This document shows positions 30,935 through 40,488 of a stretch of 64,000 nucleotides of DNA, piece by piece. Origin of the DNA: Felis catus (Eukaryota); the NCBI RefSeq assembly GCF_018350175.1, contig NC_058377.1:67642001-67706000 (forward strand), written 5' to 3'. Position numbers and translations under genes: made by a program. The notes beneath the pieces were generated by a model. It did no database searches. It saw nothing but the letters and a program-made list of their open reading frames with translations, and had not been told where the DNA came from. The first letter of the stretch is position 1, and the number at the start of each line of letters is the position of its first letter.

Positions 30935-31150
30935 ACAGGTCCTGAGTTTTGGAATCAGACACCTGGGGTCCCCTTCACAGCTCTGCCACCCCCCAGCAGG
31001 ATGAGCTTGAGCTCTTCTTAGCTTCAACCTGAGCCCCAGTGTCTGCATGTGTGAAATGGGGCTACTAAAATTTATTTGGGGTCATGGGATGACTAAACTC
31101 ATCAGTATTTGTAAAGTACTTATCATTTAGGAAGTGCTCTGTTAAGGGTA
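30935..31150 (+). mobile_element. MIR
   Basis: 'ggaatcagacacctgggg...ctgcatgtgtgaaatgggg' MIR-like. Confidence 0.5.
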
Positions 31151-31363
31151 GGTGCTTAGTCCAAGGCCAACCTGACAATGCCTGTGTATGGAAACAGCTT
31201 TAGAAATGTGTGCCCTCAGGCGCTGTGAGTGGTTCTGTTCTGAAGAATAATTATTTGTGAGCTAGTGGATCTGAAGCCTGGCTGACAGTGGTGGGTGGGC
31301 CTCAGACCGGGGGTATAGTGCACTTACCATTTGGACCCCCAACTCTGGGCACTGCTTGGTAGA

Positions 31364-32036
31364 CTTAGCAAAGCTCTGGAATCCAGACCTTCTCTGGAGT
31401 CCTGCCTGAAGTTGGTGGTGGCTTGTGCTGGTCCCAAGTGAGGAACGATCGTCAGTCACAGATCCCTGGTTGGGAGACACATGAGGCACTGGCCTCCTCC
31501 TCTCCTCAACACATCCCCTCACCACACCGCCGCCTCCTGAGGCTCAGTCCACCCACCGACCACCCCAGGTCAGGAGGAGGTCCGGCTTGGCATCAGCAGC
31601 CCAGCACCGGGTCCTTCTGACCTTCTGCCATCTCTTCTCTAGCCAGTCCTCCCCTGTCCCTTGTAGCCAGGCTCCAACGATGGAGGTGCTGCTTCAGTTC
31701 CTGTCTGGTGTTTCAGAGGTTCTAGAACTAGAATCGAGCCTTGCTCCCCTTACCCCCCCCCCCCCCCCGCCGCCTTTGCCAGGCCCCAAGAGTCATGCCC
31801 CTGGTTTCCAGGGTCTGTGACTGGGGTCCTGCTACCTTCTCGGAGACACCCCTAACCCTGGGGTCCCTACTCAATGTCCACTGCCTAACCCATCACCAAG
31901 CATTTGACCGTGTGTGAGTCCATCTGGCCGTGGGCCTTGGCCACCCTTGGGCTGGTGTGTCCCACCCTGCCTGAGCCCTGGGCCGGGCCCAGGAGGGCAT
32001 AGCCGCTGCCAGCCCCAGCTGACATGGGCACAGTCA
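31364..32036 (+). repeat. Left arm of a long inverted repeat (673 bp, unique GC-rich sequence)
   Basis: Manual alignment to the reverse complement of 33079-33745: 11 substitutions and a C16/C11 difference over the 654-bp core. Confidence 0.97.
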
Positions 32037-32376
32037 GCACAGAGGCCATCTGCTGGGTGTCCAGGGAGCCCACACACACTTGGCTGGGAGTCAGGAAGTC
32101 TCAACTGGGGAGCAGCATCCGCCCCTCACGGCCTCTGCTGGAGAGTTGTGGGAGGGTTCTGCAACCCCAGCTCCTTGCTCACGCTGTCTCTGCAGGCTCT
32201 GAAGCAGCCTGTGTCAGGAATGTGGGAGGGGGCGCAGATCAAGGCGGGGGAGCTGCCGGCAGCTGTAGGGAGGGGCGGGGGTGGCAGCTGCTGCTGTGAC
32301 CGCCCACTCTCCTGTCCCCTCCACAGTGTGGCATTTTGGGACCAAAGGAAGCCTCCACCCCAGATGCTTCTGGGCT

Positions 32377-32436
32377 GAATGTAGAGACATGGGCAGGATC
32401 AGGCCCGAATGTAGAGACATGGGCAGAATCAGGCCC
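32377..32436. repeat. 30-bp tandem duplication
   Basis: gaatgtagagacatgggcag(g/a)atcaggccc twice, one mismatch. Confidence 0.95.
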
Positions 32437-32624
32437 TCACTATGTCCTTGGTCAATAATTAACATGAACAAGACTCCAAAGCTGTTTTTCAATGCCCAGC
32501 CCCTTGTCCCCCACTTCTGCTAGTCAGCTTCTAATTGATCTGAAGCAGAGTCTGGGCTAAGTATTTTTCAAAGCTCTCCAGGTGATGATGATGTGTAGCC
32601 AGTGCTGAGAACTTCGGCTCCAGA

Positions 32625-33008
32625 GCTTTGCTATTCAAAGTGTGGCCCATGGGCCAGCAAAACTGACATCACCAGGGAGCTTGTTATTAATGCAGGGGCG
32701 CCTGGCTGGCTCCGTCGGTCAAGCGTTCAACTCTTGCTTTCAGCTCAGGTCATGATCTCGTGATTTGTGAGGTGGAGTCCTGAGTCAGGCTCTGCACTGA
32801 CAGTGTGGAACCAGCTTGGGATTCTCTCTCTCCCTCTCTCTCTGCCCCTCCCCAGCACGTGCGTGCTCACACACACATTCTCTCTCTCAAAATAAACAAA
32901 CATGTAAAAAATAAATAAATGCAGACTCTCAACCCCAGCTATGGAATCCGAATCTGCTTTGTAAGATCCCCAGGGGGTTCAGAGGCACATTAAATTTGGG
33001 AATCACTG
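32625..33008 (+). mobile_element. MER5A-like hAT-Charlie element split by a SINE (a second MER5-like piece lies at about 32530-32612)
   Basis: 'ttcaaagtgtggcccatgggccagc...cagggagcttgttattaatgcag' and 3' end 'cacattaaatttgggaatcactg'. Confidence 0.7.
32695..32918 (+). mobile_element. Can-SINE in the inverted-repeat spacer
   Basis: GGGGCGCCTGGCTGGCTC head; short TSD aatgcag. Confidence 0.95.
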
Positions 33009-33078
33009 TGGGAAATAAAATCAACCTTCACCCAAGGAGGGCTGTTTTAGGACACCTCTGGCTGCTGCTTAATGGTTG

Positions 33079-33745
33079 TGACTGTGGCCATGTCAGCTGG
33101 GGCTGGCAGCGGCTATGCCCTCCTGGGCCCGGCCCAGGGCTCAGTCAGGGTGGGACACACCAGCCCAAGGGTGGCCAAGGCCCACGGCCAGATGGACTCA
33201 CACACGGTCAAATGCTTGGTGATGGGTTAGGCAGTGGACATTGAGTGGGGAGCCCAGGGTTAGGGGTGTCTCCGAGAAGGTAGCAGGACCCCAGTCACAG
33301 ACCCTGGAAACCAGGGGCATGACTCTTGGGGCCTGGCAAAGGCGGCGGGGGGGGGGGTAAGGGGAGCAAGGCTCGATTCTAGTTCTAGAACCTCTGAAAC
33401 ACCAGACAGGAACTGAAGCAGCACCTCCATCGTTGGAGCCTGGCTACAAGGGACAGGGGAGGACTGGCTAGAGAAGAGGTGGCAGAAGGTCAGAAGGACC
33501 CGGTGCTGGGCTGCTGATGCCGAGCCGGACCTCCTCCTGACCTGGGGTGGCCGGTGGGTGGGCTGAGCCTCAGGAGGCGGCGGTGTGGTGAGGGGATGTG
33601 CTGAGGAGAGGAGGAGGCCAGTGCCTCCCGTGTCTCCCAACCAGGGATCTGTGACTGACGATCGTTCCTCACTTGGGACCAGCACAAGCCACCACCAACT
33701 TCAGGCAGGACTCCAGAGAAGGTCTGGTTTCTAGAGCCTTGTAAG
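33079..33745 (-). repeat. Right arm of the long inverted repeat (667 bp)
   Basis: Reverse complement of 31364-32036; the ORF track shows near-identical peptides on opposite strands (31423+ and 33490-). Confidence 0.97.
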
Positions 33746-33784
33746 GAGTGGGTAACCAACCTTTGTATTGGTCCGTTTTCTCCA

Positions 33785-34001
33785 AATTTCTTTTCCAGGA
33801 AACCTGCTTTTGCTTGTGAGGCCTTCAGCTGATTGAATGAGGTCTAGCCACATTATGGAGGGTAACCGCCTTTACTTCAAGTCTGCTGATTGTAGTTTAC
33901 CCTGTCTACAAATACCTTCAGGGCCACGCCTAGATTAGTGTTTGATTGAACCACTGGGTGATGTAGCCCAGCCAAGCTGACACCTGAAAGCAATCATCAC
34001 A
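33785..34001 (-). mobile_element. ERVL LTR fragment (MLT2-type)
   Basis: 'gaggccttcagctgattgaatgaggtctagccacattatggagggtaa...gccaagctgacacctgaaagcaatcatcaca' matches the recalled antisense MLT2 5' end. Confidence 0.7.
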
Positions 34002-34244
34002 CCCTCCAATGTGTCCACTGGTGTGGTTTTGGGGTGCCAGTGCCTTTAGGGGAGCGAGCGTTTGCCTGCCTGTCTGTACGCAGGGCTGGATGCTGGTGTT
34101 CAGTAGGGATGGGAATGGATCCTCCCTGTCCTTCTCCACCCCTGCCTGGGCTCAGGTCCCCAGCACCCAAAGCTTAATCAGTGCCACAGTCTCCCAACCG
34201 TGGTTTCCAGCCTTTTCTCACACCACACCCAGCAAGACCTTCTT

Positions 34245-34466
34245 TTTAAAAAAATTTTTTTTTCAACGTTTATTTATTTTGGGGACAGAGAGAGACAGAG
34301 CATGAACGGGGGAGGGGCAGAGAGAGAGGGAGACACAGAATCGGAAACAGGCTCCAGGCTCTGAGCCATCAGCCCAGAGCCTGACGCGGGGCTCGAACTC
34401 ACGGACCGCGAGATCGTGACCTGGCTGAAGTCGGACGCTTAACCGACTGCGCCACCCAGGCGCCCC
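34245..34466 (-). mobile_element. Very young Can-SINE
   Basis: Perfect 12-bp TSD caagaccttctt (34233-34244, 34469-34480); CpGs retained; intact A box TGGCGCAGTCGG and B box GTTCGAGCC. Confidence 0.98.
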
Positions 34467-40041: not shown

Positions 40042-40488
40042 CAGGGGTTAGCAAACATTTTCTATAAAGGGCCAGCTAGTAAATATTTTCAGCTTTGTGG
40101 ACCATATGGTCTTGTGCAGTTACTCAACTCTGCCACTGTAGCATGAAAGCACCCATAGGCAATATGGAAATAAATGGGCACGACTGTGTTCCAATAAAAC
40201 TTTACTTAAGGGGCGCCTGGGTGGCGCAGTCGGTTAAGCGTCCGACTTCAGCCAGGTCACGATCTCGCGGTCCGGGAGTTCGAGCCCCGCGTCAGGCTCT
40301 GGGCTGATGGCTCAGAGCCTGGAGCCTGTTTCCAATTCTGTGTCTCCCTCTCTCTCTGCCCCTCCCCCGTTCATGCTCTGTCTCTCTCTGTCCCCAAAAT
40401 AAATAAACGTTGAAAAAAAAAAATTAAAAAAAAAAAACTTTACTTAAAAAACCAAGGTTACCCAAGGACTATAGTTTGCTAATGCCTT
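40042..40488 (-). mobile_element. MER58A-like hAT-Charlie element split by a SINE
   Basis: Terminal 'caggggttagcaaac' and 'tagtttgctaatgcct'; internal 'ctcaactctgccactgtagcatgaaagca...ccaataaaacttta'. Confidence 0.8.
40210..40433 (+). mobile_element. Very young Can-SINE
   Basis: Perfect 14-bp TSD aaaactttacttaa (40196-40209, 40434-40447); intact A and B boxes. Confidence 0.98.

What the first reader, a model, noticed from the sequence alone, without database searches (positions are those of the whole stretch)
31364..33745. 2.4-kb quasi-palindrome: two unique 670-bp arms, about 98% identical, around a 1042-bp spacer
Seen: 31364-32036 is the reverse complement of 33079-33745, with 11 substitutions and one poly-C length difference (16 vs 11) over the 654-bp core. 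The arms are GC-rich, keep their CpGs, match no repeat I recognise and have no flanking TSD. Identity frays at the outer edge (3 substitutions and 1 indel in about 20 bp). Established: closely spaced near-identical inverted repeats mediate recurrent inversions, are homogenised by gene conversion, can extrude as hairpins, and form long dsRNA (ADAR or Dicer substrate) if transcribed through. Inference: this is either a recent inverted duplication or an older palindrome kept young by conversion, possibly with a flip-flopping spacer.
Basis: partly seen in the sequence, partly recalled or inferred. Interest (0 to 1): 0.72.

Follow-up and report, generated by a model that had tools for sequence, protein, structure and literature searches.

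The report
Young inverted duplication in cat DNA
A 645-base piece of gene-free DNA is present twice, mirror-wise and 1 kb apart, likely because a replication fork jumped templates a few million years ago; this is a common, well-described kind of mutation, and no function was seen.

Summary
The inverted repeat is real: 31364-32036 versus 33745-33079, 653/673 identical, with only two copies in the genome. Another individual's DNA run holds both inner junctions and the left outer junction, so it is no mis-assembly. The 'frayed' outer edge is probably not decay. 31366-31380 is the exact reverse complement of spacer 32619-32633, a 15-mer found nowhere else in 1.86 Mb. This points to a templated insert at a junction, so the left arm is likely the new copy, made by replicative template switching. 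Ten core substitutions give about 3.4 My (1.6-6.3) without conversion. No decayed outer homology and no significant patchwork of differences were found. The geometry fits the commonest inversion-type variant in humans (copies under 1 kb within 5 kb, PMC4617611). A second, 129-bp case lies 125 kb away. The one poly(A) RNA run sampled showed no transcription. Other species and spacer orientation could not be tested. The scan noted larger inverted duplications on other DNA, none like this locus. Ordinary.

The parts
31366..31380 (-). 15-bp junction insert, exact reverse complement of spacer 32619-32633; 12 of 15 columns also match the outer edge of the right arm (inferred landing site of a second template switch)
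   Evidence: chance levels
31383..32027 (+). left arm core, 645 bp, likely the new copy; carries the A/T allele at 8 of 9 weak/strong differences and the longer C run
   Evidence: the collapsed contig of run X10 covers exactly 31383-32027
32029..32036 (+). 8 bp shared by both arms beyond the last mismatch (32028); inferred microhomology of the switch back to the original strand
   Evidence: alignment; role inferred
32037..33078 (.). single-copy spacer, 1042 bp: unique GC-rich start, a 30-bp tandem duplication, an old DNA-transposon remnant and an old SINE
32555..32686 (+). old dispersed repeat (MER5-like, name recalled) that holds the donor 15-mer; homologue L025 aligns across it without a break, so the 15-mer is native here
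32619..32633 (+). donor of the junction insert; the aligned family copies L024 and L025 differ from it
32695..32914 (+). old carnivore-type SINE in the spacer (name recalled), 72-78% identical to other SINEs nearby
33088..33727 (-). right arm core, 640 bp, likely the original copy
   Evidence: a contig of run X20 carries all 9 right-arm letters over its 227 aligned bases, in phase with the right flank
33765..34001 (-). old LTR-like dispersed repeat (MLT2-like, name recalled), 70-77% identical to copies elsewhere, pointing towards the repeat and ending about 20 bp outside the right arm
   Evidence: 40 of 453 candidates scored; its end point rests on a weak match (14 of 20 columns, shuffle p 0.17)

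Best explanation
This is a real two-copy inverted duplication of unique intergenic DNA that likely arose once, a few million years ago, by replicative template switching, and it is likely without function. Inferred path: synthesis coming from the left flank (about 31365) jumped to the opposite strand inside the spacer and copied 15 bases (32633 to 32619). Their 3' end resembles the outer edge of the original segment (12 of 15), so it jumped again, copied about 640 bases backwards (33727 to 33088), and returned to the original strand at about 32029-32037 through 8 bases of microhomology. Since then the copies have mostly drifted apart. Shown: two copies, junction sequences, uniqueness, presence in other individuals. 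Inferred: which copy is new, the order of switches, the age, the lack of function.
For: Two copies in G000. Run X10 (DNA) has contigs across the left outer, left inner and right inner junctions, with arm depth 35.3 against flank depths 22.8, 25 and 27.2; run X15 has both inner junctions. The depth ratio 1.41 is nearer 1.60 (differences kept) than 2.0 (arms identical). The 15-mer occurs 2 times in the window (0.00 expected) and only these 2 times in 1.86 Mb even with one mismatch. A match of 15 or more bases to any of the four junction zones came in 25 of 20000 simulated spacers and 15 of 3000 simulated 10-kb regions. In real DNA, 6 of 3000 repeat-free 60-base zones had an inverted match within 1.3 kb. 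The donor lies inside an old repeat that a homologue crosses unbroken. Boundaries are sharp. 10 substitutions in 645 bp give 3.4 My (1.6-6.3) at the cat rate of 0.86e-8 per 3.8-year generation. In humans 54% of 229 characterised inversion sites were inverted duplications, nearly all under 1 kb and within 5 kb of the other copy (PMC4617611); most show 1-15 bp microhomology, read as replicative (PMC12350158). A second unique inverted pair with a 982-bp spacer lies 125 kb away.
Against: No outgroup was read, so the empty ancestral site was not seen and the direction of copying rests on one 15-mer. With repeats left in, 31 of 4000 real zones had an inverted match and 112 of 4000 a match on either strand, that is about 3% and 11% over four zones. 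The match was found after looking. The differences are lopsided (left arm A/T at 8 of 9 sites, p 0.04; 7 of 8 events, p 0.07), which equal drift does not predict. The age assumes no conversion and no errors at formation. At about 650 bp the arms are longer than the human median of 284 bp, and no other unique inverted pair was found in the 1.6 Mb sampled on eight other contigs.
Confidence: 0.7

Rival explanations
1. An older inverted repeat (pan-felid or older) whose arms are kept alike by arm-to-arm gene conversion, with or without a flipping spacer.
For: The short distance between the arms would allow intrachromatid conversion (established for larger palindromes; PMC8981503, search listing only). 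Six of 9 difference events lie in 150 bp and one tract of 232 bp has no substitution. The identical 15-mer does not exclude 11 My (probability 0.47).
Against: The clustering is not significant (p 0.11 and 0.18). No older, more diverged strata lie outside or inside the arms (best p 0.02 of four tests, at a place that does not mirror the arms). The 15-mer and its donor lie outside the mirrored arms, and the chance of their staying identical falls to 0.024 at 55 My and 0.002 at 95 My (the match was picked for being exact). The longest perfect tract is 132 bp. In humans, recurrence of inversions tracks repeat length, and 23 of 32 recurrent ones had repeats of 10 kb or more (10.1101/2021.12.20.472354, passages). 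The differences seem kept in another individual.
Confidence: 0.12
2. A young duplication of another geometry: the right arm is the new copy, or the repeat is the scar of a staggered-break inversion of the spacer (mechanism recalled from Drosophila work, not read here). The 15-mer is then chance.
For: No old repeat was found that crosses any of the four junctions, so none is directly shown to be ancestral. The outer 19 bp could be microhomology between two ancestral sites.
Against: It leaves the exact 15-mer at the left outer junction unexplained. The old LTR-like repeat beside the right arm seems to end before the junction, not to be cut by it (weak).
Confidence: 0.12
3. A working hairpin-RNA locus: transcription from the neighbouring LTR-like remnant, or read-through from the GalNAc-transferase gene, passes both arms on the minus strand and gives a 640-bp double-stranded RNA for ADAR or Dicer.
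For: The arms would pair strongly if transcribed (about -1540 kcal/mol; this follows from any such repeat). The remnant and the gene both point towards the repeat on the minus strand. One RNA-library contig (X20, depth 2.1) covers the outer 255 bases of the right arm and its flank.
Against: Poly(A) run X24 gave 2 reads of 12.9 million, both partial and at the C run. The gene has a poly(A) signal 259 bp after its stop and lies 32.5 kb away. No Rfam match in the window. No A>G cluster: 1 A>G among 3 new letters in X15. X15 holds 1082 million letters of contigs, so host DNA carry-over is likely; X20 may be DNA too.
Confidence: 0.04
4. Assembly artefact: two haplotypes of one segment placed in opposite orientation.
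For: Arm divergence of 1.6% is not far above what distant haplotypes can show (inference). No laid record spans a whole arm with both flanks.
Against: Other runs hold distinct junctions for both copies and raised depth on the arm (X10, X15); 14 runs of the same organism label hold 0.86-0.87 of the words.
Confidence: 0.01

Closest known systems
Small proximal inverted duplications ('Inverted Dup') of the 1000 Genomes structural-variant map (PMC4617611, passages) and of long-read surveys (PMC12350158, passages)
   Same: Copy under 1 kb, inserted in inverted orientation within 5 kb of the other copy, not a retrotransposon, short microhomology at the junctions.
   Different: Those are polymorphic in humans (277 events, median 284 bp). 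This one is longer, about 1.6% diverged, and no empty allele was seen in the two runs that cover it. Its ancestral state was not observed.
Local templated insertions and template switching at breakpoints (PMC4617611 passages: 871 complex sites, 53%, had a local template of 10 bp or more within 10 kb; PMC7954356, abstract; FoSTeS and ODIRA discussion in PMC10766186, passages)
   Same: A 15-bp piece copied from 1.2 kb away on the opposite strand sits at a junction.
   Different: Here it is inferred from one genome, without the parental allele.
Inversions mediated by inverted repeats with recurrent toggling (PMC3961182, passages; 10.1101/2021.12.20.472354, passages)
   Same: Near-identical inverted repeats over 200 bp flank a single-copy segment.
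   Different: Recurrent cases mostly have repeats of 10 kb or more; here 645 bp, with no perfect tract over 132 bp and no evidence on orientation.
Conversion-maintained X and Y palindromes of primates (PMC8981503, PMC3723533; search listing and start of abstract only)
   Same: Arm-spacer-arm layout.
   Different: Those have arms over 99% identical and are far larger and gene-bearing (size and gene content recalled). This one is 98.4%, sub-kilobase, gene-free, and conservation between species was not shown.

Membership tests
small proximal inverted duplication | duplicated stretch under 1 kb, inverted, within 5 kb of the other copy | tested here: met
   645 bp, spacer 1042 bp
small proximal inverted duplication | copies are not independent transposon insertions | tested here: met
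   2 matches in G000; controls find old repeats
small proximal inverted duplication | microhomology or local templated insert at the junctions | tested here: met
   15-bp insert at the left outer junction; the 8-bp inner microhomology is inferred without the parental allele
small proximal inverted duplication | a single-copy ancestral allele exists in the population or an outgroup | not testable with these tools
   no other mammal genome is held; no joint skipping the arm in X10 or X15; the pattern for the empty site had 0 matches in metagenome contigs, an uninformative blank
conversion-maintained palindrome | both arms in related species, partners closer than orthologues | not testable with these tools
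   the laid runs gave no clearly diverged species: the X20 contig equals the right arm, X15 has no difference in 334 bp of spacer
conversion-maintained palindrome | patchwork of homogenised tracts or older strata at the edges | tested here: not met
   p 0.11 and 0.18; no mirrored homology beyond the arms; power is low with 9 events
recurrently toggling inversion | both spacer orientations segregate | not testable with these tools
   short-read contigs collapse the arms; no long reads were available
recurrently toggling inversion | long flanking repeats with perfect tracts of about 200 bp or more | tested here: not met
   longest perfect tract 132 bp
hairpin endo-siRNA or ADAR-substrate locus | transcription through both arms | tested here: inconclusive
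   no full-fitting read in one poly(A) run, about 2% read; one low-depth RNA-library contig on the right arm
hairpin endo-siRNA or ADAR-substrate locus | A-to-I clusters or 21-23-nt RNAs | not testable with these tools
   no small-RNA run among the 24 listed; no raw reads on the arm

The most novel reading that the evidence does not exclude
The duplication created a hairpin-RNA gene by placing a mirror copy downstream of an LTR remnant. In oocytes or early embryos the LTR drives a transcript through both arms, and the arms have been kept alike across cats by conversion. The right arm meanwhile gains G/C letters: it has the G/C allele at 8 of 9 weak/strong differences, and two further A-to-G/C letters sit beside right-arm letters in run X15.
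Probability: 0.05. Interest if true: 0.65.

Novelty: new member of a known kind. Interest (0 to 1): 0.17.

Why it matters
As read here it matters little. It is a tidy fossil of a two-step template switch whose junction can still be read, a possible lineage marker for cats, and a place where short reads collapse two copies and can give false heterozygous calls. It would matter more if both arms were found across felids with partners closer than orthologues (conversion in a sub-kilobase, gene-free autosomal repeat), or if it gave double-stranded RNA in the germ line.

Tried and rejected
Protein-coding reading: 281 stop-to-stop frames of 70 aa or more without N in the window gave 2 weak Pfam hits below cut-off, neither in the repeat. 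RNA families: 0 Rfam matches. Decayed homology outside and inside the arms: four local alignments, p 0.02, 0.10, 0.84 and 0.53; the best does not mirror the arms. Clustering of differences as a conversion signal: not significant. 'CpGs kept': equal to background. Alleles on the collapsed X10 contig were not used for phase or conversion, because bubble removal mixes the arms. The word share of 0.86-0.87 in 14 runs cannot tell one copy from two and was not used for copy number. The empty-site pattern had 0 matches in metagenome contigs: no evidence either way. One CTCF-like match in the spacer from a recalled consensus: not pursued. An inversion between the two 15-mers was rejected because L025 aligns unbroken across the spacer copy. 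A paper search for GALNT18 with inversion and inverted repeat gave 0 papers. PMC10997796 (passages) gave no date for the Felis split; 10.1101/501981 (passages) gave no repeat sizes; (listing only) gave nothing used. Supplements were not opened; lists of cat structural variants there could name this locus.

Full report
Observation. BLAST of the window against itself gives 31364-32036 against 33745-33079 at 653/673 with 14 substitutions and 2 gaps; every other non-self match listed is under 250 bases. The list of differences confirms 3 substitutions and 1 indel in 31364-31382, 10 substitutions and a 5-base C-run difference in 31383-32027, one at 32028, then 8 shared bases. The arms match only each other in G000, whereas the spacer and right flank find many old repeats at 70-88%. 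GC is 0.62 in the arms, 0.64 in the single-copy spacer start and 0.48 in the window; CpG observed/expected is at background.

Setting. The window is G000:C21:67642001-67706000. Its SINEs are of the cat type (recalled). No gene was found inside it. To the right lies a polypeptide GalNAc-transferase gene on the minus strand: catalytic exons match GalNAc-T structures (E 6e-15), and the last exon has a weak lectin-domain hit. I recall it as GALNT18; no call names it. Its stop codon is 32.5 kb from the repeat, with a poly(A) signal 259 bp after the stop. The repeat is therefore intergenic.

Is it real? Four of 24 listed runs were laid on 31140-32370. DNA run X10 has separate contigs for the left outer junction, the left inner junction and the right inner junction, and one collapsed arm contig covering 31383-32027 at depth 35.3 against 22.8, 25 and 27.2 on the flanks. 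The ratio of 1.41 compares with 1.60 expected if the window's differences are kept and 2.0 if the arms were identical. X15 also shows both inner junctions. X20 gives one contig equal to the right arm and its flank. No joint that skips the arm was listed, but contigs drop rare variants. No record spans an arm with both flanks, so spacer orientation is untested.

The junctions. Searching each junction for matches elsewhere showed that 31366-31380, most of the 'frayed' edge, is the exact reverse complement of 32619-32633 in the spacer. The other junctions gave 12 bases at most. The 15-mer occurs only at these two places in the window and in 1.86 Mb, even with one mismatch. The spacer copy lies in an old dispersed repeat that homologue L025 crosses unbroken, and L024 and L025 differ from it there; the left flank has no such homology. 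Chance: 25 of 20000 simulated spacers and 15 of 3000 simulated 10-kb regions matched any of the four zones. In real DNA, 6 of 3000 repeat-free zones had an inverted match and 25 of 3000 a match on either strand; with repeats left in, 31 and 112 of 4000. The 15-mer also agrees at 12 of 15 columns with the outer edge of the right arm. The simplest reading is two successive template switches, then a return through 8 bases of microhomology. That makes the left arm the new copy. This is inference from one genome; the empty site was not seen.

Age and conversion. Ten substitutions in 645 bp give 3.4 My (95% range 1.6-6.3) at the cat pedigree rate (10.1101/2021.04.06.438608, start of abstract; computed), if there was no conversion. 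I looked for signs of an older repeat and found none: no mirrored homology beyond the arms and no significant clustering (6 of 9 events in 150 bp, p 0.11; longest gap 232 bp, p 0.18). The insert and its donor lie outside the mirrored arms and are still identical; this has probability 0.79 at 3.4 My, 0.47 at 11 My and 0.024 at 55 My, with the caveat that the match was picked for being exact. A pan-felid age is thus open and a much older one is unlikely. The longest perfect tract is 132 bp, under the roughly 200 bp cited for non-allelic recombination, and human toggling goes with far longer repeats.

Unexplained. The left arm carries A or T at 8 of 9 weak/strong differences (p 0.04; 7 of 8 events, p 0.07). 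In X15 two further letters, 31846 A>G and 31869 A>C, sit within 24 bases of right-arm letters on one contig, and one C>T at a CpG lies on another. This could be chance, error-prone synthesis of the new copy, constraint on the old copy, or G/C-biased fixation at the right arm. An outgroup would decide.

Transcription. Poly(A) run X24 (12.9 million reads, about 2% of the run) gave 2 partial reads at the C run and none elsewhere. X20 and X15 are RNA libraries with contigs on the arm, but DNA carry-over cannot be excluded. An old LTR-like remnant ends about 20 bp outside the right arm and points into it. The hairpin reading is possible in tissues not sampled and has no positive support.

How common? 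In 1.863 Mb (264 kb around the window plus eight preset 200-kb stretches), 195 local repeat pairs of 60 bp or more, 85% or more and within 10 kb were found. Ten had no distant homologue in the sample: 2 inverted (this one and a 129-bp, 94.6% pair with a 982-bp spacer 125 kb away, unique in G000), 2 dispersed direct, 6 tandem. None of the eight preset stretches held a unique inverted pair, and no other reached 500 bp. The kind recurs, but this is a large example.

Comparison and verdict. The geometry is that of the commonest inversion-type variant in human surveys (PMC4617611; PMC12350158; passages read), with local templated inserts well documented. It meets the three features that could be tested; the ancestral allele could not be. 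It does not meet the tested features of conversion-maintained palindromes or toggling inversions, though the cross-species test is open. One search found no paper joining the recalled gene name with an inversion or inverted repeat. Earlier notes of this scan held nothing on this locus and only larger duplications in other genomes. New member of a known kind; interest 0.17.

Noticed in passing
L003:6698-6826 and L003:7809-7937 (G000:C21:67548698-67549937): A second unique inverted duplication: 129 bp, 94.6% identical, 982-bp spacer, 125 kb from the finding; two copies in G000; no templated insert of 12 bp or more found at its junctions.
   Followed up: partly
window 34240-34466 and 40210-40436: Two young SINEs in inverted orientation 5.7 kb apart, 99% identical over 212 bases, each with its own flanking direct repeat, so likely independent insertions of one young subfamily.
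   Followed up: partly
window 32377-32426: A 30-bp tandem duplication in the spacer with one difference between the copies.
   Followed up: no
L013:2272-2481, L014:8154-8447, L018:4847-5167, L019:3309-3569, L022:6719-7069 (all minus strand): Exons of a polypeptide GalNAc-transferase gene (GALNT18 by recall) whose 3' end lies just right of the window.
   Followed up: partly
window 31846, 31869, 31557: Run X15 shows three arm letters found in neither arm of the window (A>G, A>C, C>T); the first two lie beside right-arm letters on one contig.
   Followed up: partly
G000:C1:20027258-20028168 and G000:C15:20110724-20111956: Two unique dispersed direct duplications (119 bp at 97.5%, 673 bp apart; 163 bp at 90.2%, 909 bp apart) in the sampled stretches; uniqueness was checked within the sample only.
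   Followed up: no
L003-L022 (200 kb flanking the window): No CpG island by a 500-bp scan in the 200 kb around the window: a gene-poor interval.
   Followed up: no
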